DNA from: Leptospiraceae bacterium
GTDB taxonomy: Bacteria; Spirochaetota; Leptospiria; Leptospirales; Leptospiraceae
Assembly: GCA_016708435.1 (NCBI GenBank)
Contig: JADJFV010000035.1
Location: 64,001-128,000 of the forward strand
Direction: 5' to 3'
DNA length: 64,000 nucleotides
Shown here: piece by piece, positions 6,437 through 40,816 of the stretch
Layout: the number at the start of each line of letters is the position of its first letter
Position numbering within the stretch: position 1 is the first letter of the stretch
Notes under the pieces: model-generated
What the model was told of the DNA's origin: nothing
Seen by the model: the letters and a program-made list of their open reading frames with translations, nothing else
Database searches by the model: none
Translations under genes and position numbers: made by a program

Positions 6437-6578
6437 CCCAATGGCACCGACTGTGATGGTATCAGAGGAAATAGATACAGATGTTCCAAAATTATCATTT
6501 GCCTTTGCTTTGGCTCGTGTAAAAACAAAAAAAGTATTTCCTCTTGACAAAGAGCCAATTTCAAACAAAGTAAGGAGC

Positions 6579-7178
6579 ATGGACAACTTAGCGCGTAAAC
6601 TTTTCACCGAAGAAGAATACTTAGAAATAGAAAGACAGGCAACCGATAAAAGTGAATATTACAAGGGAGAAATCTTCGCTATGGCAGGAGCGAAGCGAAA
6701 GCACAATCTCTTAGTCACAAATCTATGCAGGGAGATCAGTTCCATCCTCAAGAACAATCCCTGCGAAGTCTATCCTTCTAATATGAGAGTAAAAAACAAG
6801 ACAGATAGATTTTATACCTATCCCGATGTAACCATCGTTTGTGGAAAGCCGGAATTCTTGGATGACGACGAAGATGTCCTTACAAATCCAACTGTTATTA
6901 TAGAAGTTTTATCTACTTCTACCGAGAAATACGACAGGGGAGGAAAATTTGCTCTCTATCGAAATATACCTTCCGTTCAAGAATACATTTTGGTAGGCTC
7001 CGAAGAAAAGAAAATAGAGTCCTTCTTTCGCAAAGGAGATGAATGGATTTTTCGGGAATCTAAAAACGAATCTTCATATCACTTCCGCTTACAATCTTTG
7101 GATATAGAACTTTCCTTAGATGACATTTATGAAAAAGTAGAACTACCTCCCAAAAGATTGCGAGAGAATTTTTTATAG
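6579..7178 (+). CDS. Uma2-family (DUF820) putative restriction-endonuclease-like protein
   Basis: Motifs are [25 protein letters not shown] and [38 protein letters not shown]. The ORF track starts at 6441. An internal Met at 6579 gives the typical ~200 aa length. Confidence 0.65.
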
Positions 7179-7179
7179 T

Positions 7180-7262
7180 CAGGAACGCACATTGAAGAAG
7201 CTATCCTTTGCTCTCCGCCAATTTCGCGCATAATTCAAATACCCCACAAAAAAACTACGAAG
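7180..7262 (+). repeat. Junction repeat: a shared 55-bp segment (CAGGAACGCACATTGAAGAAGCTATCC...ATTTCGCGCATAA) plus an R1-like 25-mer
   Basis: The 55-bp segment recurs at 9129-9183, where it encodes the C-terminus of the PIN protein. Confidence 0.7.
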
Positions 7263-7332
7263 CTTTTTAAGCTGTCTCTACCCTCTTTTTTCTCTTTACA
7301 ATTTAGAATAAGTGGAATGAGATAGAGAAACG

Positions 7333-8223
7333 ATGATTGCGAACTTAGACAACGAAGTATTTTTCAAGAAAGCATTTACGGATACGTTTGTATTGAAGCA
7401 TTTTGTAAAAGATGTTTTGGAAATGGACTTGGACTTTGACAAAGTAGAAACCGAAAAATCTTTCGATCCAAGGATTGGGAATATTGATTTTAAATATGAT
7501 ATTTTTGCAGAGTCTACGGACAAGCGGGTAATCATCGAAATCCAGAAAGTGGATTACGATTACAACTTCGATCGGTTTCTGCATTATTTTTTAATGGCAA
7601 TCGCTGAGCTTCAACGCAGTTCCAAAGACTATGGCATTGAAAAAACTGTATACGCAGTTATATTTATCACAGCTCCCTACAAGATAAATCAAAAGACTGG
7701 AATCCCCATCAAAGATGAACTTTTGATTTCTAACTTGAATCCGAAGAACATCAAGGGCGATGAATTAAATATCTATGGTCATAGTCTGTTATTTTTAAAT
7801 CCGAATTACAAAAATGCTGAAATCCCAGCGCGTATCCGAGATTGGTTGGATTTAGTTTACGAGTCCATGCACAATCCCGAAAAACCGAGCATCAACCAAA
7901 ACAACGACGGAATCAAACGAGCTTCTGAAATTCTAGACTTTGAACATATATCTCCTTCTGAATGGGAACAAAGCAAAATCCGTGAAGGCAGAAAGAAAGT
8001 GCAGCTAATAGCAAAAGAAGAAGGCGTTGAAGAAGGGAAAATTATCGGTAGAGAAGAAGGAATTAACATTGGTGTTGAGAAAGAAAGAGAGCGTTCTGAA
8101 AAAGAAAAAGAGGATGCAATCAGAAAAGCAATTTCTAAACAAAAGCTTTCCTTAGAAGAAATAGCAGAGGTCTTTGGCGTATCAGTGGAATTTGTGCAGC
8201 ATTTGCCCAAGGGCGTGGATTAA
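7333..8223 (+). CDS. Rpn/YhgA-like PD-(D/E)XK nuclease family protein (putative transposase/invertase-type, TIGR01784-like)
   Basis: The N-terminus has FFKKAF...DIFAESTDKRVIIEIQK (D..E.K nuclease core). The C-terminal region is Glu/Lys-rich and coiled. Confidence 0.55.
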   Translation: MIANLDNEVFFKKAFTDTFVLKHFVKDVLEMDLDFDKVETEKSFDPRIGNIDFKYDIFAESTDKRVIIEIQKVDYDYNFDRFLHYFLMAIAELQRSSKDYGIEKTVYAVIFITAPYKINQKTGIPIKDELLISNLNPKNIKGDELNIYGHSLLFLNPNYKNAEIPARIRDWLDLVYESMHNPEKPSINQNNDGIKRASEILDFEHISPSEWEQSKIREGRKKVQLIAKEEGVEEGKIIGREEGINIGVEKERERSEKEKEDAIRKAISKQKLSLEEIAEVFGVSVEFVQHLPKGVD

Positions 8224-8310
8224 CCCACGCCCTTGGGCAAATACGAATAATTGGGCACGCCTAACACCAATACACCACAAAAAAACTGCGAGGTGTGATA
8301 CTCGCAGTTT
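8202..8310 (+). repeat. Junction: a perfect 17-bp inverted repeat spanning the Rpn stop codon, followed by the R2 repeat (CCACGCCCTTGGG...GGGCACGCCTAACA) and then R1 with its own hairpin
   Basis: TTTGCCCAAGGGCGTGG (8202-8218) pairs with CCACGCCCTTGGGCAAA (8225-8241). R2 recurs at 9192-9235. AAACTGCGAG/CTCGCAGTTT forms a hairpin at 8283-8310. Confidence 0.7.
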
Positions 8311-8481
8311 AGAAAGTGATTGGTTATAGTGTGAAAGTTTATTGAATCTTTCGGATTTTGAGGTTGCAGTTATCAGAGAAATAGAGGCGCTGATGCCTTG
8401 CAAGTAAAGCGAACAAAGTGACAGTTGAAATTTTTAGAGACAAAAATCAGTTGATCTTTTCTAGATAGTCAATATTATACT

Positions 8482-8691
8482 TTGATAGGAGAATGTATGA
8501 CAGAAATTACAGTCAAAGTTCCGAATAACTTATTGAGCATTGCACAGAAACTTGTTGCAGACGGCTGGTTCTTGGATGAAAATGAAATTTTTCTATTGGC
8601 ATTTAGAAATTATTTAAGGACTCATTCAGATGAAATTATCACATCTTTCATTAAGGAGGATATTGAATGGGGTCTGAATGGTAAAGAATGA
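8482..8691 (+). CDS. Small antitoxin-like protein (UPF0175-like partner of the downstream PIN gene)
   Basis: The 69-aa ORF overlaps the downstream PIN-like gene start by 14 bp. This is typical antitoxin-toxin architecture. Confidence 0.45.
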   Translation: MIGECMTEITVKVPNNLLSIAQKLVADGWFLDENEIFLLAFRNYLRTHSDEIITSFIKEDIEWGLNGKE

Positions 8692-9181
8692 ATGGATTGT
8701 CGTTTGTGATGCAGGTCCAATTATTCATTTAGATGAATTAAACTGTTTAGATATACTGGATTTCCAAAAGATCTTGGTTCCTATAACTGTTTGGGAAGAA
8801 ATATTACAATACAGGCGCATTCCTTTGGAAAAAATCAAAGGGCTTGAAATCATCGAAAGAACTGATTTTACTACAGAGTTTTTAGAAATATGTAAATTAT
8901 ATGACCTGCATAAAGGAGAGGCTGCCGCTATTTTCTTATCGCTAGAATTGAAGAACTCTATATTGTTTACGGATGATGGGGCTGCGCGGTTATATGCCAA
9001 AAGTAAAAATATTGCTGTTCACGGAACAATCGGGATTCTGCTTCGAGCAGTCAGAAAAAATATCCGAAGCCCAGACAATATTATAGAAATTCTAAAAAAT
9101 ATAAAAACAAATTCTACACTTCATATTTCAGGAACGCTCATTGAAGAAGCTATCCTTGCTATCCGACAAATTCGCGCATAA
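8678..9181 (+). CDS. PIN-like nucleic-acid-binding protein (COG2405/DUF3368 type), putative toxin
   Basis: The N-terminus VVCDAGPIIHLDELNCLDIL matches DUF3368 PIN-like proteins. The protein is 167 aa. Confidence 0.55.
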   Translation: MVKNEWIVVCDAGPIIHLDELNCLDILDFQKILVPITVWEEILQYRRIPLEKIKGLEIIERTDFTTEFLEICKLYDLHKGEAAAIFLSLELKNSILFTDDGAARLYAKSKNIAVHGTIGILLRAVRKNIRSPDNIIEILKNIKTNSTLHISGTLIEEAILAIRQIRA

Positions 9182-9543: not shown

Positions 9544-10682
9544 TTAGTTTGAATTGGCTCCAGAAGAAATCCAATTGGCATCAGTCATGTTTTGAAGTGT
9601 GCCATTGAAACTACCTTTTTCATCAATTAGGGTTGTTCCACTAGTTGAATCAAATTTATAATAAGCAATTAAATTTGATTCTCCGGTTGGATTGCTTAAA
9701 GGAGTGTTTCTATTATTTTGGATTTCTGCTTGTGTTCTTGCCACTTTCCAGATGCGTAGATCATCCATTTTTCCTTTATAGAAAAAACCGGAAGAGGTTG
9801 GTGGATTACTACCAGGTTGTGCACCTAAAGTAACAGGACCTAAAGTGGCACTAGTTGTAGTGTCTACAGTACCAGTAATCGCACCTGCAATAAGAGTTCC
9901 ATTTTTATATACTTTGAGTCTATCTGCAGCGGCTAGCGTACCATCAAAAACTACAGCTATATGCGTCCACGTGGAAAGTGTAATACTAGCTGCTCCAGTA
10001 CCCCTGTAACCAGGCTGTGTATTATTTTGAAAAACGTTCAGCCCCGTACCCGAAAGTTCAATGTCGATTTTTGGAATGTCGCTAGTTACTTTGGTACCCA
10101 AAATAGTTACTCCAGACTCAATCAATACCCACATTTCAATTGTATAAGCAGATGCACCTCTAAGATCTGGAATCGTTCCAATAGTAACATGTTGTTTTAA
10201 AGCAACAGCACCAAACTCAAGGGCATTTCCAAACCCAAGTGTTACACATGCAATAGATATGTTAGTCACATTCGCAGTTGCCGTCCCTGTTCCACTTGAA
10301 ACCGTGCAGGTTAATCCAGTTGGTTGCGTTTTCACTGTCACAGCATAAGCCGCTGTTTTCGTTGCAAACGTGAACGTTGTCGCACCACTGGCTACAGTCA
10401 AATCGTCTCCTGCATTGTTCTGAAGCACAAGCCCAGTTGCAGTAAGTCCTGTGATTGTTCCACCGATTGCATAAGTTGCTGCCGCTCCAGTTCCAGTTCT
10501 GTAGCTGTAGCCGTCGCCACTGTTCCACTTCCTCTAGAAGCGAGTGCCGCCGCTGCGAATAGAGGTGTTTTATCATCCTCTTTTTTATTACAATTTATAA
10601 ACGTCAAAGTAGTTGCTAGGGCAATTACTGTGAGGCATTCTATCCATAGACTAAGTTCTTTTTTATTGGTTTTATTTTCCAT
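9544..10682 (-). pseudogene. LamG/concanavalin-A-like lectin-domain lipoprotein, apparently frameshifted
   Basis: The N-terminal ORF (10398-10682) has a signal peptide and a lipobox (TFINC). The body ORF (9544-10428) is Gly/Thr-rich LamG-like (DDLRIWKVARTQAEI). The two frames differ. The in-frame stop of the body frame is at 10534-10536. A GCTACA x2 tandem lies at the junction. Confidence 0.5.
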
Positions 10683-10808
10683 TTAGTTCTCCTAAATTTG
10701 TTTGAATCTTCTTAGTTTTCAGCCTACTCGCGACTCAGTCTCTAAAGGCAACCGGTTTGAACTTGGAAATTTGGTAGAAGAGCAGTTTTTTTGTTAAAAA
10801 TCTGTAGA

Positions 10809-10830
10809 AATTTAGGACTAGTCCTAAATT
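10809..10830. promoter_or_regulatory. 22-bp perfect palindrome AATTTAGGACTAGTCCTAAATT, ~140 bp upstream of the AAA-ATPase_like gene
   Basis: It is a perfect inverted repeat. A second copy lies at 15483-15506 in the divergent promoter region of the response regulator. Confidence 0.5.
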
Positions 10831-10968
10831 TTAGCATATTGCAATGTTTGATATTTTGGAAATAAATTTCATTTTTGTGAAAAAGGAAGATTTTGCCACC
10901 AATTAAGCCGATGAACACCGATTTTCTTTTAGCTTTACAAAAGGATAAAATCTTTCAAATCTGTAATT

Positions 10969-12735
10969 ATGCTCAAAATAGCTTACGGAGAAGCCAGCTT
11001 CGATAATTTAAAAAGTCAGGGTGCTACTTACATAGATAAAACTATGTTTATTCCCTTGATGGAAATCCATACAAAGTTCTTTTTCATCCGCCCTCGTAGG
11101 TTTGGAAAAAGTCTTTGGATAAGCGTATTACAAGCATACTACGATGTTGCAAAATCGGATAAATTCGATACTCTGTTTGATGGTTTGTATATTAAGGACA
11201 ATCCTACAGATTATAAAAATTCTTATCTCATTCTTAAATTTGATTTTTCTGGTATTAATACAGAGAATGAAGAGAGTTTGAAAAGCGATTTTACTTTTCG
11301 AATCAGAAGACAGGTGATTAGCTTTTTTAAATATTATAAAAGTTTTTTTAATGATGTATTTTTGGGAAGTATAGAAGAAAATTTTAAGAATCTTTCCTCG
11401 AGCCAATTGATAGCAAGAATAAAGGATGAAGTAAAATTAATAGATAAAAAACTCTATGTTCTAATTGACGAATACGATCACTTTGCCAACAAACTCGCCT
11501 CTGAGGGAAGAGAATCTTTTATTAAAAATATAATGTCCAGTGCAGGTTTTGTCAGAGAGTTTTATGAGCAGTTGAAAATTGCAAGCGGCGAAGGTGTGAT
11601 AGAGCGATTTTTTATCACAGGTGTTTCGCCAATCATGTTGGATGAGTTATCGAGTGGATTTAATATTACAAGCGATATGACAACCGATATTGATTTTAAC
11701 GAAATGCTGGGATTTACTAGTGATGAGGTCAAGGGCTTACTCAATAAAGTTGGTGATGAAAGATATTTAGATAAATCCAAAGACGAAGTTTTTCAAGATA
11801 TGGTTCATTATTATAATGGATATCGTTTTTGTGATGAAGCAGAAAAAACTCTATTTAATTCGGATATGGTTTTGTATTTTTTAGAATATTTTAATCGGAG
11901 AGGTTATCCAAAAGAATTACTCGATGAAAATGTGAAAACCGATTACAATAAACTTCGCGGACTCATCATCGGCACTAGCGGCAAAGAAAAATTACAATCT
12001 ATCATCGAAGAAATAAATTTGAACAGTTCTCTGAGTCTAACACTCGTTAAACGCTTCAACTTCTCCCAAAGGTTCAGCGATAACGAACTTAAATCATTAC
12101 TTTTTTATCTTGGGCTTCTTACTTTTTCCAATAAACCAAATCAATTTGCAATTCCCAATTACGTAATTCGCACACTCTATTGGGAATATTTACGGAAATT
12201 TCTGGAAGAAAGTCTCACAATTGAGTTTGATATGCGATTGTTGAATAATGCAATTTACGGTATGGCTGAGACCGGAGACCCTTCTGGATTAAAAGAACTC
12301 GCTGTAGATTTCTTTCAGAAGAAACTATCTAGTTATGACTACACCAATTTTTCAGAGAAGCATGTTAAATTTCTTTTTGTCTGCTATTTTACTTTGAGTA
12401 AGTTATATAACATTATCTCCGAGCGAGAAATCTCCGAAAGGAAGCGAATTGATTTATTATTCGAAGCTCATCCGGCTTATTATGAGTATGTGCAGTTTAA
12501 CTTTATCCTCGAGTTCAAATACATTCGTAAAGAAGATAGTGAGTCAGTCGCCTTAAAAAAGAAAGAAGATGCAATCAAACAAGCTGCTGAATACTACGAA
12601 ATCTACAAACGAGATTTTAAACAATTTGGTCGCGGACTTCGCTCTGTGGCAATGCTTGTTAGTCACACTAGAGACGTGGAAGTAATTGAAGTCGGTGGAT
12701 TTGGGGAGAATTTTTACAAAGAATCATTTTTCTAA
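10969..12735 (+). CDS. AAA-ATPase_like (PF09820) N-terminal domain fused to a PD-(D/E)XK nuclease domain (PDDEXK_9/DUF1703)
   Basis: The hallmark is ATYIDKTMFIPLM...FFFIRPRRFGKSLWIS. The C-terminal RIDLLFEA...FILEFKY has the D-E-K triad. Confidence 0.75.
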   Translation: MLKIAYGEASFDNLKSQGATYIDKTMFIPLMEIHTKFFFIRPRRFGKSLWISVLQAYYDVAKSDKFDTLFDGLYIKDNPTDYKNSYLILKFDFSGINTENEESLKSDFTFRIRRQVISFFKYYKSFFNDVFLGSIEENFKNLSSSQLIARIKDEVKLIDKKLYVLIDEYDHFANKLASEGRESFIKNIMSSAGFVREFYEQLKIASGEGVIERFFITGVSPIMLDELSSGFNITSDMTTDIDFNEMLGFTSDEVKGLLNKVGDERYLDKSKDEVFQDMVHYYNGYRFCDEAEKTLFNSDMVLYFLEYFNRRGYPKELLDENVKTDYNKLRGLIIGTSGKEKLQSIIEEINLNSSLSLTLVKRFNFSQRFSDNELKSLLFYLGLLTFSNKPNQFAIPNYVIRTLYWEYLRKFLEESLTIEFDMRLLNNAIYGMAETGDPSGLKELAVDFFQKKLSSYDYTNFSEKHVKFLFVCYFTLSKLYNIISEREISERKRIDLLFEAHPAYYEYVQFNFILEFKYIRKEDSESVALKKKEDAIKQAAEYYEIYKRDFKQFGRGLRSVAMLVSHTRDVEVIEVGGFGENFYKESFF

Positions 12736-12758
12736 TAAATGGAATCCCAAGTATTAAA

Positions 12759-14816
12759 ATGAAACAAATCAAAAATAAAGAATATCGTAAAAAAAAGAAT
12801 GTTATGGAAATCACGATTAGCCGCATTCTACAAACGGCAACGCTACTATTCTTTATTCTAGCCAGTATTGTATTTCAAGCCTGCACTAGCGAAAAAAAGA
12901 TTTTTCCAAAAGCAGAGAAAGGTATTCTTGATTTGCGATCTGCATCCATTGATTCCGAAATAAGTTTAGATGGAGAATGGGAATTTTATCTCTTTACGTT
13001 TATTGATCCAACAAATCCAAACTTAAACCCAGAAAAACAATTCATCCAAGTCCCTGGAATTTGGAATCAGGCAATGAAACAGGGAAAGGGTTATGCAAGT
13101 TATAGACTCCAAGTCTTGTTACCCGATACAAATTCTATTCCTCTCGCTTTTAAGGTTATGGAGAACGGGACTGCCTATAAAATGTTTGTCAACGGAATAG
13201 AAGTAGCGGCTAACGGGCAAATAGGAAAGACAAAGGAAGAAAATATCGCAGAGCATTTGCCACTTGTTGTCCCACTAAAAAACTATTCCCCAAAAATAGA
13301 AATTGTATTTCATGTGTCAAATTTTCATTATACGGATGGAGGACTTTGGTATTCAATTCAGTTGGGAGAGGATTCCAAAATCAGAAAAGCAAAAGAAAAC
13401 AAAATGCTTCTCACATTGTTTTTATGTGGAAGCATTTCAATCATGGCAATTTATCATATTGCCGTTTATCTTTTTAGAAGAAAGGATAAGTCTGCTTTAG
13501 CTTTTAGTCTTTTTTGTATCGCGATAGATTTTAGGCTTCTTGGATTCAATGAAAAGTTTTTGAATCAAATTTTTGTGGGAGATTATTTTCTAATTCTAAA
13601 TCGGATTGAATACCTGGCTTATTATTTGGCGATTCCGTTCTTTGCTAGCTTTCAGCAAATTATTTTTCCAAATGAATTTAGAAAAATATTCTTACATTTT
13701 TTTTTGATTATCTCTTCTTTATTTTCTTTAGTGGTTCTTTTGTTTGATAGTTTTATTTATACACATACAGCCTTTTACTATCATATCTATGTTCTTTTTT
13801 TTATGGGCTATTCAACGTTTGTAATGATAAAAGCAGTAACCAATAATAGAGATGGATCTAAAATTTTTACCTTTGGAATGTTTCTTCTTTTTGCTGTAAC
13901 AATAAATGATATTCTTCATTCTAAGACAATTATTCAAACAGAATTTATGGCTCCCTATGGAATGTTTGGATTTATTTTTATTCAATCCATAATGCTTTCG
14001 ATGAGATTCTCAAAGGGATTTAACATGGCAGAAAAATTAAGTCACGAACTTATACTACTCAATGCAAGTCTTGAAGATAAAATTTTAGAGCGAACAAAAG
14101 AATTAACCAAAAAAAAAGAAATAGCAGAAGAAGCAAGTCTCATCAAAGATAAATTTGTTTCGATTGTATCGCATGACTTGCGATCTCCGCTCTTAGGTGT
14201 ATCGAATATACTTGAAATCATTGACAAAAAAGAAATCGTTACAACCGAAGAAGAAAGAAAACAATTTTTAGAAATGTCTCGCGAGAGTATTAAATTTTCT
14301 TTGAAAATGATAAATGAATTATTAAACTTAAGTCGTATTGAAACCGGCAAAATCAAAGTTAAAAAACAGAATATTTCCGTGCAAGAAATGACTAAATTAT
14401 TTCTAAAAGAATTGGAACCGCAAGCTAAATTAAAAAATATTACAATCAAAACCGAAATTCCATCTCTCCTTTCTATCTATATTGATTTGGAGTTATTTCC
14501 TCAAGTCTTAAAAAATTTGATTACCAATGCAATTAAGTTTACTGAGCCGGAAGGAAATATTTTGATCCGAGGAATCGCGAGCGAAAAAGAATCAATCATT
14601 GAAATTCATGATAACGGCGTTGGGATGAGCGCCGATGAACTCAATCAAATCTTTGAGCCCGGTGCCAAAAAGACAAGGCTTGGAACTTCTGGTGAAATTG
14701 GAAGTGGAATGGGATTATTTATTTGTAAATACATTGTAGATGCACACGGTGGAAAAATCCAATTCATAAGCGAAGAAGGGGTTGGAACAATTTGTAAAAT
14801 TATTTTACCGATATAG
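12759..14816 (+). CDS. Sensor histidine kinase with a 7TMR-DISM extracellular domain, 7TM region, HisKA and HATPase_c
   Basis: It has a signal/TM segment, an extracellular ~180 aa domain (WEFYLF...HYTDGGLW), then 7 TM helices. H-box is SIVSHDLRSPL. G-boxes are HDNGVGM and GSGMGL. Confidence 0.8.
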   Translation: MKQIKNKEYRKKKNVMEITISRILQTATLLFFILASIVFQACTSEKKIFPKAEKGILDLRSASIDSEISLDGEWEFYLFTFIDPTNPNLNPEKQFIQVPGIWNQAMKQGKGYASYRLQVLLPDTNSIPLAFKVMENGTAYKMFVNGIEVAANGQIGKTKEENIAEHLPLVVPLKNYSPKIEIVFHVSNFHYTDGGLWYSIQLGEDSKIRKAKENKMLLTLFLCGSISIMAIYHIAVYLFRRKDKSALAFSLFCIAIDFRLLGFNEKFLNQIFVGDYFLILNRIEYLAYYLAIPFFASFQQIIFPNEFRKIFLHFFLIISSLFSLVVLLFDSFIYTHTAFYYHIYVLFFMGYSTFVMIKAVTNNRDGSKIFTFGMFLLFAVTINDILHSKTIIQTEFMAPYGMFGFIFIQSIMLSMRFSKGFNMAEKLSHELILLNASLEDKILERTKELTKKKEIAEEASLIKDKFVSIVSHDLRSPLLGVSNILEIIDKKEIVTTEEERKQFLEMSRESIKFSLKMINELLNLSRIETGKIKVKKQNISVQEMTKLFLKELEPQAKLKNITIKTEIPSLLSIYIDLELFPQVLKNLITNAIKFTEPEGNILIRGIASEKESIIEIHDNGVGMSADELNQIFEPGAKKTRLGTSGEIGSGMGLFICKYIVDAHGGKIQFISEEGVGTICKIILPI

Positions 14817-15420
14817 AGATTTCTTCTTTTAATTTGTGTAGCAGCTCCGTGTTGTTATTCGCATTGTATTTTTTACGAAGCTTGTAGATATAGTATTCAA
14901 CTGTCTTTTCTGACTTACAAATCTTTTTTGCAATTTCGGAATATTCTAATCCTATTGCTAAGAATCCTAAAATTTCAAACTCAAGTGGTTTTAATTTTTG
15001 TTCTCTTTTCTTTTGAGTTAGATAAATTTTCAATTCATCAGAACAATAAAAAACTCCTTTCATGGCCTGCATAATAATTGTAGGCAAATAGGTAATAGGC
15101 TCTGATTTTAAAACATAGGAATCGGCTCCAAGTCTTCCTGCTTGAAAAAAACTTTGAATTCCATTGTGCATTGTAAAAATTATTATTTTTAAATTGGGAT
15201 AGTTCTCTTTTAGAATTCTGAGTAGTTCAAAATTTTGTGCTCCTGGCATGTCCAAATCCAGAATAGCTAGGTCTATCTCGTTGTTTTGCAAAAACTCTAG
15301 GACAGAATTTCCATCCTGAAAAATACCGCAGACTTCTAGCCTGATATCCGATTTTAAAACAGCTTTCACTCCTGCCGTTACAACGGAATGATCGTCTGCT
15401 ATAATGACCCTAATTTTCAT
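14800..15420 (-). CDS. Two-component response regulator, NarL/LuxR family (REC + HTH_LuxR)
   Basis: The REC domain has IIADDH and LAILDLDMPG. The C-terminal LuxR HTH is EFEILGFLAIGLEYSEIAKKICKSEKTVEYYIYKLRKK. The 3' end overlaps the HK gene convergently. Confidence 0.85.
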   Translation of the reverse strand: MKIRVIIADDHSVVTAGVKAVLKSDIRLEVCGIFQDGNSVLEFLQNNEIDLAILDLDMPGAQNFELLRILKENYPNLKIIIFTMHNGIQSFFQAGRLGADSYVLKSEPITYLPTIIMQAMKGVFYCSDELKIYLTQKKREQKLKPLEFEILGFLAIGLEYSEIAKKICKSEKTVEYYIYKLRKKYNANNNTELLHKLKEEISISVK

Positions 15421-15482
15421 GTAAATCTAAAATAAGAAACACGACTAATTTAGAAAGTCCGAAAATTTTCAAGGGAATAGAA

Positions 15483-15506
15483 AAACTAGGACTAGTCCTA
15501 AACTTT
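15483..15506. promoter_or_regulatory. Second copy of the TAGGACTAGTCCTA palindrome, in the divergent intergenic region between the RR gene and the lipoprotein gene
   Basis: AAACTAGGACTAGTCCTAAACTTT. The core 14 bp are identical to 10813-10826. Confidence 0.5.
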
Positions 15507-15717
15507 TAAACAAATTGTGCGAAAAAATTTAATTCTTGTTAAGGATAGGTAAGGCATTTATAGTTATGAGCTTTTCGGCTTTCGGATTGAAATTAGCAAA
15601 ACTGAAATAAAAGCTAGGAATAGCGTAGATAGAAAAAGAATTACTTGAAATTATTGGGATAGCTTTTATTATTTCCGGCATTCATGAAAAGGTAGCTTGA
15701 GCGCGAGGAGCAAAAAA

Positions 15718-18129
15718 ATGAAACGGGAAACCTTAGATAAAAAAATACCGACCTTATTTATCGTAATCTTTTTTACATTTTGCAATCTAGGGAACCATAA
15801 TACAAAAGAAGAAAATGAATCCTTGTTCACAAATTTGGGATTACTGTTTAGCAGAGCCAATCGACTTACTGTATCAGGCTCTGCAGTAAAAGGAATTGTT
15901 AAAAATGGAAAAGTGTCAATTAGCACCGTAGAAAAAGATGGAAGTTGTAATTCCTCTCAGAGTCTTGCCACTGGAACTACAGACATAACTGGACTCTATT
16001 CTATTTATTATAACAAAGTAGGGGGAATGATTTGTATTACTATTTCCGGCGATCAAAATACTACCATGTATGATGAGAAATCTGGAAAAGACTTACCGGT
16101 TCCATCTACTTCTGATTTTAAACTGGTTTCTATTCTTCCTGAAAGTAAATTTTCTAGTAATTCAAAAAAGAACGCTCTCATCTCTCCCTTTTCAAAATTA
16201 TTATCCAAAAGAATGGAAACCTTAATTAAGCAGGCAGGAGAAGGGGCAGATGTATCGGCACTTTACAAAAAGGCAAGCAAAGAAGTAGTCATCCGATTCG
16301 GTTTAAGTTCTGGTCTTTCAAGTGCTTCGCAAAAAAACAAACGACTTCTAGAAATCAGACCCAGTATTTTAGATTCAGATTATCCAGAATTGGATGATCT
16401 TGTAATAGAACTAGACAACCCGAATAGCCCTATCTCTGCTAAATATCTTTCTGTGCTGGCAGGTTTTTCACAACTGGCAAATTCTTACAAAAAAGAAACG
16501 GAAGTTAAAGTAACAGATGTAGATTCAGTAATAAACGCATTTGCTTCTGATTTTGAGGATGGAGTTTTTGACGGAAAAAATGGTTCGGGCAGTACAGTTA
16601 CATTGGGGGCTGGTCAAAGGCAACTAACGTTTTCTTCCAATCCTCTTACTACTATTTTGCTACCCGCGATTTCCACTTATCTGCAAGAAGGAGGAAATTT
16701 GAGCGTAGGTGTGCCAGGAACAGCAACATCTACAATCACGATAACTCAATTCACAAATCAAACTCAGTTTAATGACAATAGCCCAATCATATCTACTACA
16801 ACAACTACTACACCTACCACCACGCCAACCCCTACGCCTGTGGTAACTCCGATAACTCTCAGCATAACAGCATTTAGTTTTACGGATACTGTAAACGGTT
16901 TAAGCAAAACCTATAACGGCATAATAACTGGAAGCAATATTACAATCGATATACCCTATGGAAAGCTTACGTCCGCGATTCCTTCTATTACTACAAATGC
17001 TACTACCATCATGGCTCCTTCTGCTGTAACAAGCGGAGTAACTTTGTTAGACTTTACAAACCCTGTCACACTTACTCTAAGTGCTGCCAATGCGGCTAAT
17101 GTAGTGTATACCGTTACAGCGTATCCGATAACGCCTGTAGCAGATACAGGTCAGACGATTTGTTTTAACAATGCAACCCCTCAAGGATCTTGCGCTACTA
17201 CAACGGCCACCTTCCCAAATCAGGATGGAGAACTTTTAAATTTTCCAAATGCAAAAGGAACACAAGCTATTTCGACTAACCCCGGTTACCCAAATGATCA
17301 AATCAATCAAGATACTTTAAAAGGTATCGTTTGGAAAACATGCCACGAAGGTCAAACAGGACCAACTTGTGCTGGAGGAACAGCTTCTACCAATAATCAT
17401 GCATCAGCTACTACGCTATGTGGTAATTTGAATTCAGCAAATTCTGGAGCAGGCTATGCTGGATTAAAAAATTGGAGATTGCCGAATGTTTATGAATTGA
17501 ACCAATTATTGGAACTTAACGGTAGCACGACGAATAACAACTATTGGAATGCAACTTTTTTCCCAAATGCACCAGCAGGAGGTTTAAGCAGATGGACTTC
17601 TTCATTAATATTGCCAGCGGCTACTAGTGCTATGACCCAAACTACTGAATACATTCAAAACCAGGCTACTTCCACTCCCAATTATGTTCAATGCGTGAGT
17701 GGACCCGCTTCTCCCGCTTTTGATATGGTTGATAATGGAGATGGAACAATTTTTGATAAAAGAACTAAATTGATTTGGCAAAGATGTGCTTTTGGACAAA
17801 CTAATGATGCTACCTGTTCAGGTGCTCTCGCAACTAAAACCTGGACTAATTCATTGTTAGATTGTAAGAATTTAACTTTAGCAGGAAAGTCTTGGAGACT
17901 TCCCAATGCGAATGAATTTTTGACTCTAGTGGATTTGTCTATTACCACTGTTCCAAAAGTGAATCCTACTCTTTTTCCTAATTTTGGTGTTGCAAATTAT
18001 GAGACTAGTTCAACCAATCAAAATAATCTTGCCTATTCCCATATTTTTGATACCAATGCTACTGGCTTTTATGGATGGTCAGGGAAAGGAAGTGTTTACA
18101 ATTCCCGTTGCGTGGCTGGTCCTGAATAA
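15718..18129 (+). CDS. Large lipoprotein with an N-terminal conserved module, a Thr/Pro linker, and C-terminal 2x DUF1566 (Lcl C-terminal-like) repeats
   Basis: The lipobox is FTFCN. The linker is TTTTTPTTTPTPTP. Two DUF1566-like repeats are NWRLPNVYELNQLLEL and SWRLPNANEFLTLVDL. The first ~350 aa are ~70% identical to ORF 35091-37646. Confidence 0.7.
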   Translation: MKRETLDKKIPTLFIVIFFTFCNLGNHNTKEENESLFTNLGLLFSRANRLTVSGSAVKGIVKNGKVSISTVEKDGSCNSSQSLATGTTDITGLYSIYYNKVGGMICITISGDQNTTMYDEKSGKDLPVPSTSDFKLVSILPESKFSSNSKKNALISPFSKLLSKRMETLIKQAGEGADVSALYKKASKEVVIRFGLSSGLSSASQKNKRLLEIRPSILDSDYPELDDLVIELDNPNSPISAKYLSVLAGFSQLANSYKKETEVKVTDVDSVINAFASDFEDGVFDGKNGSGSTVTLGAGQRQLTFSSNPLTTILLPAISTYLQEGGNLSVGVPGTATSTITITQFTNQTQFNDNSPIISTTTTTTPTTTPTPTPVVTPITLSITAFSFTDTVNGLSKTYNGIITGSNITIDIPYGKLTSAIPSITTNATTIMAPSAVTSGVTLLDFTNPVTLTLSAANAANVVYTVTAYPITPVADTGQTICFNNATPQGSCATTTATFPNQDGELLNFPNAKGTQAISTNPGYPNDQINQDTLKGIVWKTCHEGQTGPTCAGGTASTNNHASATTLCGNLNSANSGAGYAGLKNWRLPNVYELNQLLELNGSTTNNNYWNATFFPNAPAGGLSRWTSSLILPAATSAMTQTTEYIQNQATSTPNYVQCVSGPASPAFDMVDNGDGTIFDKRTKLIWQRCAFGQTNDATCSGALATKTWTNSLLDCKNLTLAGKSWRLPNANEFLTLVDLSITTVPKVNPTLFPNFGVANYETSSTNQNNLAYSHIFDTNATGFYGWSGKGSVYNSRCVAGPE

Positions 18130-21612: not shown

Positions 21613-22494
21613 TTAAAGTATAACTGCGTTTTTTGCAGTCATTAATTTTTTTTGAATTACGATTCCTGGATTGCCGAGTGCTTTTTTAAATTGCTTCTCT
21701 GAAAAGTTCGCAACGATTTCATAGCATTGCTTATAGAAGGCTTCCTGGTCGTCTAGATATCCTTTCCATACCTCGCGAGTGAATTCATGAGTGAGAAATT
21801 GTTTTCGCTTACGAGAGGAGCTTTGTCCTTCTGGACTTAAGAAACTCAACTGGTCGGAAATTTCCATTGGTGTAAATTTTAATTGAAGCAAAGCTTCTTC
21901 CATGAGTGCCATCTCTACATAGGAAATATAATCCGACAACTGATCCCAGAATTCGAATCCTGCACTTCCATAATTACTCAGGCAGTGAAAACTTGTGCAT
22001 ACGGAGCTACGTGATTTCCAGATTCCACAATTATTTCTTTTGCGATCGTAATAAGGACAAAGCCAATCTTCTCTATTTCCAAACTCATTGTCTTTTCGTT
22101 TTGCAAATTTAATCTGGTGGGGCATGGGTGCGACAATTCCAATCGGTAATGCGTATTCTCTATTCTTAATCTTTGCTTTTATTCGCTCTAATACTTCTTT
22201 CGGTGTAGTAGGGGTTAATAGGATTTGTCCGATGAGATAGTTTGTTTGAAAAGGATGAAAGGTGCAACATTTTAAATGAGCTTGGTATTTTCTATGGTCT
22301 GGACTTTTTCCGTTACTGAGTGCACAGTTATCGCAAGTGGCTTTTGTTTCTTTTATCGCAAAATCAAGAATAGCCTCTGGAAATAGTTTATGATAGATAG
22401 AAGGAAGTATATTTCTAATCACTAGCCATTGCCTCAGCTGCAATCCAAGAAGTTGTCCATGCATTTTGGAAATTAAATCCGCCTGTGATCCCAT
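21613..22494 (-). CDS. Cys-rich protein, possibly YkgJ/UPF0153 family (CxxCxxCC Zn/Fe-chelating domain)
   Basis: The segment is ATCDNCALSNG...KCCTFHPF, with further Cys clusters (CPYY...CGIWK...CTSFHC). The start is uncertain and overlaps the upstream gene. Confidence 0.4.
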   Translation of the reverse strand: MGSQADLISKMHGQLLGLQLRQWLVIRNILPSIYHKLFPEAILDFAIKETKATCDNCALSNGKSPDHRKYQAHLKCCTFHPFQTNYLIGQILLTPTTPKEVLERIKAKIKNREYALPIGIVAPMPHQIKFAKRKDNEFGNREDWLCPYYDRKRNNCGIWKSRSSVCTSFHCLSNYGSAGFEFWDQLSDYISYVEMALMEEALLQLKFTPMEISDQLSFLSPEGQSSSRKRKQFLTHEFTREVWKGYLDDQEAFYKQCYEIVANFSEKQFKKALGNPGIVIQKKLMTAKNAVIL

Positions 22495-38689: not shown

Positions 38690-40816
38690 ATGAAATTAAC
38701 GTTACGATTATTTCTATTCCTTGTAATTTTACTTGGTTTATTTTGCGAGAAGAAACAAGATAAAGCCGCTTTTAATGAACGAGAATCCAAAGGAAAAATG
38801 GATTTAACGAATTGGGATTTTGGGAAGCAAGGCTACAAGAAATTAGATGGTGAGTGGAGGTTTTATTGGAAGGAACTCAGACCACCAGAAGATGCTATGC
38901 TTGAAGTAACTTCTGATCATTATTCGACAATTAAAGTCCCAGGCTCTTGGAATGATTTTATGGTAGACGGTAAAAAAGTGGGCGGCTCGGGCTTTGCTAC
39001 CTATGCGCTTTATCTACATTTGCCTCCATCGTTAAAAGGAAAAATACTTACACTCAAAATTCCGCATATGGGAACGGCTTATAGACTTTTTGTGGATAAC
39101 GAGCTATTAGCCGAAAATGGAGTAGTTGGAAAATCCTACGAAGATATGAAACCTCAATATCTAAGTTTGACTCGTAGTTTTATTGTTAGCAGTGAATCTG
39201 TGTTAATCACCATCCATGTTTCCAATTTTCATCATAGGAAAGGAGGAATTCGTTTTGACTCGCTTTATTTAGGAAAAGAAGAACAACTCCAGGCTTTACA
39301 GGCAAGCAATACAATTTATATTTTTTTCTTAATGGGAAGCTTGGTCATAATGGCGATTTACCATTTTGGTTTATTTTTCTTACGAAAAGAAGATATTGCC
39401 GCCCTTGTGTTTGGAATCTTTTGCTTTCTAGTTTCTATTCGTTTATTCTTTATTGGCGATGTGTGGATAACGTCTATTTATCCCACTTTAGATTGGTATT
39501 GGATGTATCGGTTTGAATATCTTTCTTTGTATTTTTCTGCGCCCACATTTACCTTATTCACTTTCTATGTATTTCGAAGTGAGTTCAATAAAAAGGTTTT
39601 GTATTTGACGCTTCCAATTTATATTTCGTTATCTGCTTTAGTTTTATTTTCAAAGCCCAGTGTTTTTTCTCTAAGTCTTAATTTCTTTCAAGGAATTGCA
39701 GTTTTAAATTCTCTGTATATTCTTTTTGTTATTATTCTTGCCATTATTCGGGCAAAGGAAGGTGCGATTGCTGCACTTATAGGTTTTGTTTTATTTGTAT
39801 TTACAATTATAAATGATTTGCTTTATAATAATGAAATCATTCTAACGGGTTACGGTAATTTGCTTCCACTTGGAGTATTTCTCTTTATATTTTCTCAATC
39901 TTTTATTCTATCTCAAATCTTTTCTAATGCGTTTAAATCAATTAAAACTCTTTCGAAGAACCTAAGCCAAACAAATGAGGCATATGGTCGTTTTGTGCCA
40001 GTTGAATTTTTGAAGTATCTTAATAAAAAAAGCATTGTGGATATTCAACTAGGCGATCAGATGCAAAAAGAAATGGCGATTCTATTTTCAGATATTCGTT
40101 CCTTTACAGATTTAAGTGAGAAACTTACTCCACGAGAAAATTTCAACTTTTTAAATTCTTATTTGAAGCGGATGAGTCCTATTATCCAGAAAAACAATGG
40201 CTTCATTGATAAATACATTGGAGATGCGATCATGGCTTTGTTTCCAGGAGAAGTAGAAGAGTCCATTCAAGCTGCGATTGAAATGCAAAAGGAAGTTCGT
40301 GTTTACAATCAACATAGACTAAAGGAAGGATATGATCCAATTAAAATTGGTTGTGGAATTCACACTGGAAATTTGATGCTTGGAATTATTGGAGCAGATG
40401 CTAGAATGGAAGGAACGGTGATTGCTGATTCGGTAAATGTTGCTTCTAGAATTGAAGGACTTACAAAAGTGTATGACGCATCTATTTTGATTAGCGATGT
40501 GATTCTTAAAAAGCTAAAAGACCCTTCCATTTTTCATTACAGATACATTGACAAAGTAAAAGTTAAAGGCAAAACAGAATATACCGTTATCTATGAAATC
40601 TATGATGGGCAGCCTAATTTTATGATTGAGTTGAAAACCCAAACTAAAGAATTCTTTGAAGAGGGAATTACATTATACTATGAAAAGAATTTTAAAGATG
40701 CCATTCCTGCTTTCTTACGGGTAATGGATATTAACCCAAATGATGTAGCTTGTGCCATTTATTTAAAGCGAGCAAAGTATTATCTGGAAAATGGAATTGT
40801 AGAATTCTTGGAGTGA
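38690..40816 (+). CDS. Class III adenylate/guanylate cyclase with a 7TMR-DISM extracellular domain and 7TM region
   Basis: The CYC domain has AILFSDIRSFTDLSE...FIDKYIGDAIMALFPG. The N-terminal sensor module is paralogous to the HK at 12759 (WRFYWKELRP...HHRKGGIRF). Confidence 0.8.
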   Translation: MKLTLRLFLFLVILLGLFCEKKQDKAAFNERESKGKMDLTNWDFGKQGYKKLDGEWRFYWKELRPPEDAMLEVTSDHYSTIKVPGSWNDFMVDGKKVGGSGFATYALYLHLPPSLKGKILTLKIPHMGTAYRLFVDNELLAENGVVGKSYEDMKPQYLSLTRSFIVSSESVLITIHVSNFHHRKGGIRFDSLYLGKEEQLQALQASNTIYIFFLMGSLVIMAIYHFGLFFLRKEDIAALVFGIFCFLVSIRLFFIGDVWITSIYPTLDWYWMYRFEYLSLYFSAPTFTLFTFYVFRSEFNKKVLYLTLPIYISLSALVLFSKPSVFSLSLNFFQGIAVLNSLYILFVIILAIIRAKEGAIAALIGFVLFVFTIINDLLYNNEIILTGYGNLLPLGVFLFIFSQSFILSQIFSNAFKSIKTLSKNLSQTNEAYGRFVPVEFLKYLNKKSIVDIQLGDQMQKEMAILFSDIRSFTDLSEKLTPRENFNFLNSYLKRMSPIIQKNNGFIDKYIGDAIMALFPGEVEESIQAAIEMQKEVRVYNQHRLKEGYDPIKIGCGIHTGNLMLGIIGADARMEGTVIADSVNVASRIEGLTKVYDASILISDVILKKLKDPSIFHYRYIDKVKVKGKTEYTVIYEIYDGQPNFMIELKTQTKEFFEEGITLYYEKNFKDAIPAFLRVMDINPNDVACAIYLKRAKYYLENGIVEFLE

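What the first reader, a model, noticed from the sequence alone, without database searches (positions are those of the whole stretch)
10809..15506. Identical 22/24-bp palindromes bracket the AAA-ATPase / histidine kinase / response regulator block: a candidate operator pair
AATTTAGGACTAGTCCTAAATT (10809-10830) is a perfect 22-bp palindrome ~140 bp upstream of the first gene of the block. AAACTAGGACTAGTCCTAAACTTT (15483-15506) lies in the divergent promoter region between the LuxR-type response regulator and the large lipoprotein gene. LuxR/NarL-family regulators bind dyad-symmetric boxes of about this size. The RR is the only DNA-binding protein in the block. The two sites are positioned to control both outward-facing promoters. 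I found no other copies of the core TAGGACTAGTCCTA in the window.
Basis: partly seen in the sequence, partly recalled or inferred. Interest (0 to 1): 0.6.

Follow-up and report, generated by a model that had tools for sequence, protein, structure and literature searches.

The report
Response-regulator operator dyads, conserved across relatives
The two palindromes are real and are most likely the DNA sites where this two-component system's own LuxR/NarL-type regulator binds to control its own gene and neighbouring genes, which is an ordinary bacterial design seen here in an unstudied system.

Summary
The 14-bp palindrome TAGGACTAGTCCTA occurs exactly twice in the window, at 10813-10826 and 15487-15500. 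The first copy sits in a perfect 24-bp palindrome. The second is perfect only over the 14-bp core, so the two sites are not identical 22/24-mers.

The window comes from an uncultured Leptospiraceae bacterium from activated sludge. In about 12 lineages of response-regulator orthologues (46-100% identity), a dyad TAGG(A/G)-N4-(T/C)CCTA lies 70.5-73.5 bp upstream of the regulator's ATG, with one exception at 96.5 bp. It is the only strongly conserved block there. All neighbouring genes except the kinase vary.

The dyad fits the published RcsB box TN(G/A)GAN4TC(T/C)NA. RcsB is the closest solved homologue, and its base-reading Lys180 is conserved here as K172. Regulators with A or G at helix position 179 instead of Y carry TAGGG instead of TAGGA.

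Extra dyads lie next to adjacent lipoprotein genes. A PWM scan and a metagenome scan found no dispersed copies, no transposase, no terminator and no Rfam match.

Verdict: the operator interpretation is supported, refined to autoregulation plus a small local regulon. It is a new member of a known kind, and binding is untested.

The parts
10808..10831 (.). Site S1: perfect 24-bp palindrome AAATTTAGGACTAGTCCTAAATTT (core 10813-10826). It lies in the divergent intergenic region between a lipoprotein gene (-) and the AAA-ATPase/kinase genes (+).
   Evidence: It is conserved at the homologous position in L058 and L066. PWM score is 34.1 bits.
15482..15506 (.). Site S2: dyad AAAAC-TAGGACTAGTCCTA-AACTTT (perfect core 15487-15500). 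Its centre is 73.5 bp upstream of the response-regulator ATG and 224.5 bp upstream of the Lcl_C lipoprotein ATG.
   Evidence: An equivalent dyad lies 70.5-73.5 bp upstream of the ATG in orthologous loci.
14800..15420 (-). Response regulator (206 aa, REC + GerE/LuxR HTH). It is the proposed binder of S1 and S2. Recognition helix is K169-S-E-K172-T-V-E-Y-Y-I-Y179-K-L-R-K-K.
   Evidence: Pfam. The closest solved homologues are RcsB and NarL. D9, D10, D55, T83 and K105 are invariant. The protein scores below all NCBIfam equivalog cut-offs.
12759..14816 (+). Cognate sensor histidine kinase (685 aa; 7TMR-DISM_7TM, HisKA, HATPase_c). It converges on the regulator gene with a 17-nt 3' overlap and starts 23 nt after the AAA stop codon, so it is probably co-transcribed from the S1 side.
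   Evidence: The kinase/regulator pairing is conserved in every orthologous locus.
10969..12735 (+). AAA-ATPase_like + PDDEXK_9 protein (588 aa), the first gene downstream of S1. It is not part of the conserved core: it is absent next to more distant orthologues and is placed differently in L058 and L066.
9544..10682 (-). Lipoprotein gene divergent from S1 (signal peptide and lipobox, then a Laminin_G_3 domain). In this window it is frameshifted after about 59 codons. It is a candidate S1 target.
   Evidence: Other strains carry an Lcl_C C-terminus on the same N-terminus.
15718..18129 (+). Large Lcl_C (DUF1566) lipoprotein (803 aa) divergent from the regulator gene across S2. It is a candidate S2 target. 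An orthologous lipoprotein is also divergent from the regulator in L078/L079, where the regulator is 46% identical.
10839..10868 (+). Tentative sigma-70-like promoter downstream of S1 and facing the AAA gene: TTGCAA (10839-10844), 18 nt, TAAATT (10863-10868). The -10-like part lies in a block conserved in L058 and L066.
   Evidence: My own reading. It falls below the threshold of the promoter scan. This is inferred only.

Best explanation
S1 and S2 are operator sites for the block's own NarL/FixJ-type response regulator.

Proposed mechanism:
1. The 7TMR-DISM kinase phosphorylates Asp55 of the regulator.
2. The regulator dimerises, and its two GerE helix-turn-helix domains each read one half-site of the dyad (A/T-rich)-TAGGA-N4-TCCTA-(A/T-rich), as RcsB does on its box.
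3. From S2, centred 73.5 bp upstream of its ATG and just upstream of where a -35 element would lie, it controls its own transcription. Activation is the more likely direction.
4. From S1 it controls the AAA-ATPase/kinase transcript and/or the divergent lipoprotein gene.
5. S2 may also serve the divergent Lcl_C lipoprotein gene.

What is shown: the existence of the sites, their conservation, position and geometry, the co-variation with the recognition helix, and the lack of dispersal.

What is inferred: binding by this regulator, the direction of regulation, and which of the divergent genes respond.
For: 1. Phylogenetic footprint.
- In loci encoding regulator orthologues of 100, 99.5, 85, 83, 82, 59, 57, 56, 55, 54, 51, 50 and 46% identity, every locus that includes the upstream DNA has a dyad TAGG(A/G)-N4-(T/C)CCTA.
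- It is centred 70.5-73.5 bp upstream of the ATG, with one exception at 96.5 bp.
- In the 85% locus the contig ends 74 bp upstream of the ATG, so the site would be cut off there.
- In alignments anchored on the dyad it is the only strongly conserved block.
- The central 4 bp vary: CTAG, AAAG, CTTC, GTAT, AAAA, ATTC.

2. Background. In 191 kb of these loci there are 16 matches with at most 1 mismatch. By my count 13 are such sites and 3 are background, about 1.6e-5 per bp.

3. Linkage. Only the regulator and the kinase are constant neighbours. The other neighbours are hemerythrin, a 94-aa ORF, Lcl_C, DUF1554 or AAA.

4. Fit to a known box.
- The dyad fits the RcsB homodimer box TN(G/A)GAN4TC(T/C)NA (PMC7913699).
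- RcsB is the best PDB match (E 2.4e-19).
- RcsB K180, the residue that hydrogen-bonds the (G/A)GA bases, aligns with K172, which is invariant here. T181 aligns with T173.

5. Co-variation.
- Orthologues with the helix EY(Y/H)(I/V)YKLRK(K/N) have TAGGA.
- The three with A or G at position 179 have TAGGG: P0037 EYHLARLRKK, P0017 EYYAGRIRKK and P0036 EYHTAKIRKK. In two of them both half-sites changed (TAGGG...CCCTA).

6. The regulator has all the phospho-acceptor residues.

7. Second dyads in relatives again lie beside lipoprotein genes: L078 at 4798, L100 at 798, and S1 in L058 and L066.

8. Hairpin stability is not conserved. It ranges from -18.8 to -0.6 kcal/mol, while the half-site sequence is conserved.
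Against: - No binding or expression data exist.
- The transcription start sites are unknown, and no convincing -35/-10 pair could be assigned downstream of S2 (and my own reading). Activation versus repression is therefore open.
- The whole genome could not be scanned, so a larger regulon or a different global binder is not excluded.
- In several lineages the palindrome extends to 26-34 bp, with lineage-specific but symmetric flanks (L078 34/34, L066 30/34). This is longer than a GerE-type dimer is known to need.
- The co-variation rests on two or three lineages that are not independent.
- Kinase genes in other lineages carry no dyad upstream. Control of the kinase through S1 would therefore be specific to this lineage.
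Confidence: 0.78

Rival explanations
1. The dyads are operators, but for a different transcription factor encoded elsewhere in the genome, for example a global regulator. The response regulator gene would then be a target rather than the binder.
For: Binding is untested. The conserved position upstream of the regulator gene only shows a cis-element of that gene. The rest of the genome could not be scanned.
Against: - The motif matches the geometry and sequence of a GerE-type dimer box.
- The half-site co-varies with this regulator's recognition helix.
- The element travels with the regulator/kinase pair through many genomic contexts.
- No extra copies were found in 64 kb, in about 130 kb of related loci, or in metagenome contigs of the species.
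Confidence: 0.1
2. The palindromes act as nucleic-acid structures: DNA cruciforms, RNA hairpins in 5' leaders, or bidirectional terminators. They would not be protein-binding sites.
For: S1 and several orthologous sites fold into stable hairpins, -11.8 to -18.8 kcal/mol against about -2.5 for shuffles. Flanks show symmetric, apparently compensatory differences between lineages. The same core forms a terminator-like 38-bp palindrome between convergent secY and adk in an unrelated contig (L098).
Against: - Both window sites lie between divergently transcribed genes, not after genes.
- The terminator scan finds none, and there is no Rfam match.
- Hairpin stability is lost in L081, L076 and L101, and is weak in window S2 (-0.6 to -4.1 kcal/mol), while 9-10 of the 10 half-site bases are kept.
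- The stem bases are conserved in sequence. Free compensatory change would not produce that.
Confidence: 0.05
3. The two copies are footprints of DNA mobility or recombination: ends or target duplications of an inserted cassette (the AAA-ATPase gene, or the whole block), or sites for an inversion system.
For: - In L058 and L066 the two dyads bracket exactly the AAA gene, and the regulator-kinase unit is inverted relative to the window.
- The outer flanks of S1 and S2 form a 47-nt, 74% inverted repeat.
- Arms of S2 differ between strains and resemble S1 arms.
- In high-GC metagenome contigs the same 14-mer sits at the ends of DDE_5/IS701-like transposase genes.
Against: - No transposase or recombinase lies in or beside the block.
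- Most orthologous loci have a single dyad at a fixed distance from the regulator ATG and no AAA gene, so the element predates any insertion.
- The inversion breakpoints do not coincide with two dyads. No dyad lies between the AAA and kinase genes in the window.
- The IS-associated copies have different flanks (CAGTTGCAGTTA) and come from contigs of about 60% GC.
- A duplication origin for S1 would not conflict with operator function.
Confidence: 0.05

Closest known systems
RcsB box of enterobacterial RcsB (TN(G/A)GAN4TC(T/C)NA; PMC7913699)
   Same: Both are pseudo-palindromes with 5-bp half-sites separated by 4 bp, and TAGGA-N4-TCCTA satisfies every specified position of the RcsB box. The protein partner is a REC+GerE regulator whose best PDB match is RcsB. 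The base-reading Lys (RcsB K180) and the neighbouring Thr are conserved as K172 and T173.
   Different: The regulator is not an RcsB orthologue: NCBIfam RcsB scores 75.6 bits against a cut-off of 235. There is no RcsC/RcsD phosphorelay or RcsA partner. The kinase is a 7TMR-DISM type. The rest of the recognition helix is unusual (E-Y-Y-I-Y where RcsB has S-S-Q-K-K). The sites are much closer to perfect palindromes and have A/T-tract flanks.
Autoregulated NarL/FixJ-family two-component systems with inverted-repeat boxes (for example NarL 7-2-7 heptamers, the DosR/DevR 20-bp palindrome, the LuxR lux box; from my own knowledge)
   Same: A dimeric GerE-type HTH regulator recognises a dyad in its own promoter region and in promoters of nearby target genes. 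Feedback on the regulator gene is also shared.
   Different: Half-site sequence and spacing differ from the NarL, DosR and LuxR boxes. Here the regulator and kinase genes are convergent with overlapping 3' ends instead of forming one operon, so each needs its own promoter.
Terminal or target palindromes of IS701-like (DDE_5) insertion sequences
   Same: An identical 14-bp core TAGGACTAGTCCTA lies at both sides of transposase genes in high-GC metagenome contigs.
   Different: Those copies have different flanks, come from unrelated organisms of about 60% GC, and are adjacent to a transposase. In the Leptospiraceae loci there is no transposase, and the copy number is one to three per locus at fixed promoter positions.

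Membership tests
Operator of a NarL/FixJ (LuxR-type HTH) response regulator | A regulator with a REC domain (phospho-acceptor Asp and associated residues) and a GerE/LuxR HTH is encoded at the locus | tested here: met
   Pfam Response_reg 2.9e-20 and GerE 1.9e-08. D9, D10, D55, T83 and K105 are invariant. D55 aligns with RcsB D56.
Operator of a NarL/FixJ (LuxR-type HTH) response regulator | A dyad-symmetric site with half-site spacing compatible with a GerE-domain dimer | tested here: met
   TAGGA-N4-TCCTA fits TN(G/A)GAN4TC(T/C)NA, which was defined from RcsB-DNA crystal structures and EMSA (PMC7913699).
Operator of a NarL/FixJ (LuxR-type HTH) response regulator | The site is conserved in promoter regions of orthologous regulator genes (phylogenetic footprint) | tested here: met
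   About 12 lineages, with the dyad 70.5-73.5 bp upstream of the ATG and one at 96.5 bp.
Operator of a NarL/FixJ (LuxR-type HTH) response regulator | Site specificity tracks the recognition helix of the regulator | tested here: inconclusive
   Y179 goes with TAGGA in about 7 lineages. A or G at 179 goes with TAGGG in 3 lineages, of which 2 are probably sisters. This is suggestive, but the sample is small and not phylogenetically independent.
Operator of a NarL/FixJ (LuxR-type HTH) response regulator | Direct, phosphorylation-stimulated binding, and an effect on transcription | not testable with these tools
   This needs EMSA or footprinting, and reporter or transcript data.
RcsB orthologue / Rcs phosphorelay | The protein scores above the RcsB equivalog cut-off, and RcsC/RcsD partners are present | tested here: not met
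   NF008098 scores 75.6 bits against a cut-off of 235. The partner is a 7TMR-DISM HisKA kinase.
Intrinsic (rho-independent) terminator | A G+C-rich stem followed by a T-run, located downstream of a gene | tested here: not met
   No terminator-like sites in either intergenic region. Both sites lie between divergent gene starts.
Insertion-sequence / MITE terminal repeat or dispersed REP-like element | Association with a transposase and/or many dispersed copies in the genome | tested here: not met
   - The window has 2 copies in 64 kb.
- A PWM scan of about 190 kb of related loci finds only promoter-linked sites.
- The metagenome scan recovers only the S1 and S2 contexts for this species.
- No transposase is in the block.
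- The whole genome was not scanned.
Known structured RNA family | A match to an Rfam covariance model | tested here: not met
   No match at E <= 1 in 10500-15800.

The most novel reading that the evidence does not exclude
The dyads may mark a Leptospiraceae-specific signalling module: a 7TMR-DISM kinase and an RcsB-like regulator with an unusual E-Y-Y-I-Y recognition helix, whose local regulon is the variable Lcl_C/DUF1566-type surface lipoproteins next to it.

The module may also carry a readable specificity code, in which helix residue 179 (Y versus A/G) matches half-site base 5 (A versus G).

In addition, the near-perfect palindromic cores might act as recombination substrates. That could explain the arm exchange between S1 and S2, the inversion of the regulator-kinase unit, and the swapping of lipoprotein C-terminal domains between strains.
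Probability: 0.15. Interest if true: 0.5.

Novelty: new member of a known kind. Interest (0 to 1): 0.3.

Why it matters
The work gives a concrete, testable operator motif (AAAnyT-TAGGA-N4-TCCTA-AnnTTT) and a first target set for an uncharacterised two-component system. The targets are the regulator's own gene, the AAA-ATPase/kinase transcript, and the adjacent Lcl_C-type lipoproteins. The system is conserved in environmental Leptospiraceae, a family in which very few regulator-operator pairs are known.

The apparent helix-179/base-5 co-variation could add one data point to specificity rules for GerE-type HTH domains. Beyond that, the design is textbook: an autoregulated two-component system with a dyad operator.

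Tried and rejected
- **Genome-contig scan.** The search for related loci with the single regulator protein returned only two useful loci, L065 and L066. The rest were unrelated regulators of 27-42% identity. That used the only genome scan, so the genome-wide regulon could not be defined.
- **Viral contigs.** The 14-mer gave 44 single-copy hits, which is consistent with chance.
- **Metagenome scan.** AANNNTAGGACTAGTCCTANNNTT gave 18 stretches:
  - 3 are this species, in the S1 and S2 contexts only.
  - 8 are IS701-like ends in high-GC contigs.
  - 1 (L098) lies between convergent secY and adk and looks terminator-like.
  - The other 6 low-GC hits are single copies in unrelated contexts, read as terminator-like or chance.
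- **Promoter and terminator scans.** These gave no terminators and no convincing promoter next to the dyads. My manual hexamer assignments are weak, and I do not rely on them.
- **Other database searches.** Rfam gave nothing, a plasmid BLAST of the S1 region gave nothing, and NCBIfam gave no equivalog for the regulator, the kinase or the AAA protein.
- **Literature.** Searches on Leptospira with 7TMR-DISM and with NarL autoregulation found nothing on this system.
- **Simple inversion between S1 and S2.** I considered this to explain the different gene order in L058 and L066 and rejected it. The breakpoints do not match, and the right-hand neighbours differ: FAD oxidase there, Lcl_C here. The L066 right-hand genes have no close match in the window.
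- **AAA-ATPase remnants.** None were found next to distant orthologues.
Full report
**1. Observation**

- The core TAGGACTAGTCCTA occurs at 10813-10826 and 15487-15500. Nowhere else in the 64 kb is there a copy with 2 or fewer mismatches.
- Site S1 is a perfect 24-bp palindrome (10808-10831) and the longest in the window.
- Site S2 is perfectly palindromic only over the 14-bp core.
- The two sites share 16 consecutive bases and 22 of 25 in register. 'Identical 22/24-bp palindromes' therefore overstates the case, but the quoted strings and coordinates are correct.
- In 300 Markov simulations of the window, 5 had any repeated 14-bp palindrome and 13 had any perfect palindrome of 22 bp or more.

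**2. Context**

Pfam confirms these genes:
- a lipoprotein gene at 9544-10682(-), with a Laminin_G_3 C-terminus
- AAA-ATPase_like+PDDEXK_9 at 10969-12735(+)
- a 7TMR-DISM/HisKA/HATPase_c kinase at 12759-14816(+)
- a REC+GerE response regulator at 14800-15420(-)
- an Lcl_C lipoprotein at 15718-18129(+)

Both dyads lie between divergently oriented gene starts. The kinase starts 23 nt after the AAA stop codon and converges on the regulator gene with a 17-nt overlap.

The identical regulator protein is found on contigs of Leptospiraceae MAGs from activated sludge, such as GCA_016703885.1. All of these carry both dyads.

**3. Comparative test**

I retrieved loci for regulator homologues of 46-85% identity and one more from the genome collection.

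*The regulator-proximal dyad.*
- Every locus that includes the upstream DNA has a dyad TAGG(A/G)-N4-(T/C)CCTA in the regulator's upstream region.
- Centre-to-ATG distances are:
  - 73.5 bp in the window, L065, L088, L066, L058, L100 (after start-codon correction) and L102
  - 70.5 bp in L061
  - 71.5 bp in L081, L063/64, L080 and L078
  - 72.5 bp in L076
  - 96.5 bp in L101

- In L055, with an 85% identical regulator, the contig ends 74 bp upstream of the ATG, so the site would be cut off.
- In alignments anchored on the dyad, it is the only strongly conserved block between the neighbouring gene and the ATG.
- The four central bases vary freely.
- Across 191 kb of these loci there are 16 matches with at most 1 mismatch. 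By my count 13 are these sites and 3 are background.
- Apart from the kinase, which is always convergent with the regulator, the neighbours differ between lineages. The element therefore belongs to the regulator gene.

*Second dyads.*
- S1 is conserved at the homologous lipoprotein/AAA intergenic position in L058 and L066.
- L078/L079 has one 110 bp upstream of a 254-aa gene that heads an Lcl_C lipoprotein cluster.
- L100 has one 173 bp upstream of a lipoprotein whose N-terminus matches the window's left lipoprotein.
- L076 has three dyads 64 bp apart.
- The large Lcl_C lipoprotein divergent from the regulator is itself conserved between the window and L078 (43% identity over 331 aa).
- A PWM built from all the sites finds nothing else at 14 bits or more in the window or the related loci.

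**4. Who binds?**

- The regulator's best PDB matches are RcsB (E 2.4e-19) and NarL.
- The RcsB homodimer box, derived from crystal structures and EMSA, is TN(G/A)GAN4TC(T/C)NA. K180 is the only residue that hydrogen-bonds the (G/A)GA bases (PMC7913699).
- TAGGA-N4-TCCTA satisfies that consensus at every specified position.
- RcsB K180 and T181 align with K172 and T173, which are invariant in all orthologues.
- Co-variation:
  - Orthologues whose helix reads EY(Y/H)(I/V)YKLRK(K/N) have TAGGA half-sites.
  - The three with A or G at position 179 have TAGGG: P0037, P0017 and P0036.
  - In L078 and L100 both half-sites changed together, to TAGGG...CCCTA.
  - This is suggestive, but it rests on two or three lineages that are not independent.
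- The regulator is not an orthologue of any named regulator.

**5. Rivals**

- **Terminator or RNA element.**
  - There are no terminator-like sites and no Rfam hit.
  - Both sites are in divergent promoter regions.
  - Predicted hairpin energy ranges from -18.8 to -0.6 kcal/mol, while the half-site sequence stays conserved.
- **Mobile element or dispersed repeat.**
  - No transposase or recombinase lies at the locus.
  - Most orthologues have a single dyad.
  - A metagenome scan for the core with AA/TT flanks returned only the S1 and S2 contexts for this species.
  - That scan also returned eight high-GC contigs in which the same 14-mer is the centre of a 38-bp palindrome at the ends of DDE_5 (IS701-like) transposase genes. 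The flanks and the organisms are unrelated, so I treat this as coincidence.
- **A different transcription factor** cannot be excluded without binding data, but items 3 and 4 make it less likely.

**6. Mechanism**

The most likely mechanism is as follows. The phosphorylated regulator dimer binds S2 and feeds back on its own promoter. It binds S1 to control the AAA-ATPase/kinase transcript and/or the divergent lipoprotein gene, and S2 may also serve the divergent Lcl_C gene.

The dyad ends about 10 bp upstream of where -35-like hexamers appear in several orthologues (my own reading). This favours activation. However, start sites are unknown and no robust hexamers were found, so the direction of control is inferred.

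'Bracketing the block' is specific to this lineage. In L058 and L066 the order is lipoprotein(-) S1 AAA(+) S2 regulator(+) kinase(-), and kinases of other lineages have no dyad upstream.

**7. Verdict**

The operator interpretation is supported and sharpened to a conserved autoregulatory site plus local lipoprotein-associated sites.

This is a new member of a well-known kind, an autoregulated NarL/FixJ-type two-component system with an RcsB-like box. Interest is modest.

Noticed in passing
window 14800-14816; L055, L058, L061, L063, L076, L078, L081, L101: The kinase and regulator genes are convergent, with 3' ends that overlap by 4-26 nt in most orthologous lineages. L100 and L102 are convergent but do not overlap. 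Most two-component pairs sit in one operon. This layout implies separate promoters and possibly antisense interference.
   Followed up: partly
L058 1391-6278; L066 184-5052, compared with window 10808-15506: In relatives with 82-83% identical regulators the two dyads bracket only the AAA-ATPase gene. The regulator-kinase unit is inverted relative to the window, and the right-hand neighbours differ (FAD oxidase and epimerase instead of Lcl_C). The module has been rearranged and relocated.
   Followed up: partly
window 9544-10682 (-); L001 14739-15776: The lipoprotein gene left of S1 is frameshifted after about 59 codons, inside a Thr/Ala/Gly repeat. It carries a Laminin_G_3 C-terminus here, whereas other strains of the same species have an Lcl_C C-terminus on the same N-terminus. 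Only the first 443 bp align (92%). This suggests domain swapping, possible phase variation, or an assembly error.
   Followed up: partly
L083, L084, L086 (2057 and 3458), L089, L090, L093, L095: In high-GC (0.56-0.65) metagenome contigs the identical 14-mer is the centre of a 38-bp palindrome, TAACTGCAACTG-TAGGACTAGTCCTA-CAGTTGCAGTTA. It flanks DDE_5/IS701-like transposase genes, so it is probably an IS end or a preferred target. These contigs are unrelated to the Leptospiraceae sites.
   Followed up: partly
L076/L077 7794, 7858, 7922: Three dyad-like sites spaced exactly 64 bp apart lie upstream of the regulator gene of a 51%-identical orthologue. This suggests cooperative or phased multi-site binding in that lineage.
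   Followed up: no
window about 10919-10968; L058 and L066 equivalents: The roughly 50 nt immediately upstream of the AAA-ATPase ATG (TTTTCTTTTAGCTTTACAAAAGGATAAAATCTNTCAAATCTGTAATT) are almost invariant between species whose intergenic regions are otherwise about 72% identical. This is unexplained. It could be a leader element, or the start codon could be mis-set.
   Followed up: no
window 15482-15506, compared with L065 425-458 and L088 2964-2997: Within one species (regulator 99.5-100% identical) the arms flanking the invariant 14-bp core of S2 differ: AAAGTT/AAAAAC, AAAACC/AAAACC and AAAATT/AAAACC. Some of these arms match S1 arms, which hints at exchange between the two sites.
   Followed up: no
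L098 2675-2712: A 38-bp perfect palindrome, AAACAAAAAAAC-TAGGACTAGTCCTA-GTTTTTTTGTTT, lies between convergent secY-like and adenylate-kinase-like genes of an unrelated low-GC organism. It looks like a bidirectional terminator with the same core.
   Followed up: no
window 38723-40573: A second 7TMR-DISM-type protein (34% identical to the kinase's sensor part) overlaps or adjoins an adenylate/guanylate-cyclase-like ORF. No dyad was found near it.
   Followed up: no
window 6441-9181: A cluster of small toxin-antitoxin-like or nuclease-fold genes (Uma2, PDDEXK_2, DUF3368; PIN and DUF433 in sister strains) lies just left of the lipoprotein gene. Its content varies between strains (L001 versus L002).
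   Followed up: no
window 22219-22232: TAGGATTTGTCCGA is the only other near match to TAGGA-N4-TCCTA in the window, with 1 mismatch. It lies inside a hypothetical 269-aa gene and scores below 14 bits on the PWM, so it is probably background.
   Followed up: partly
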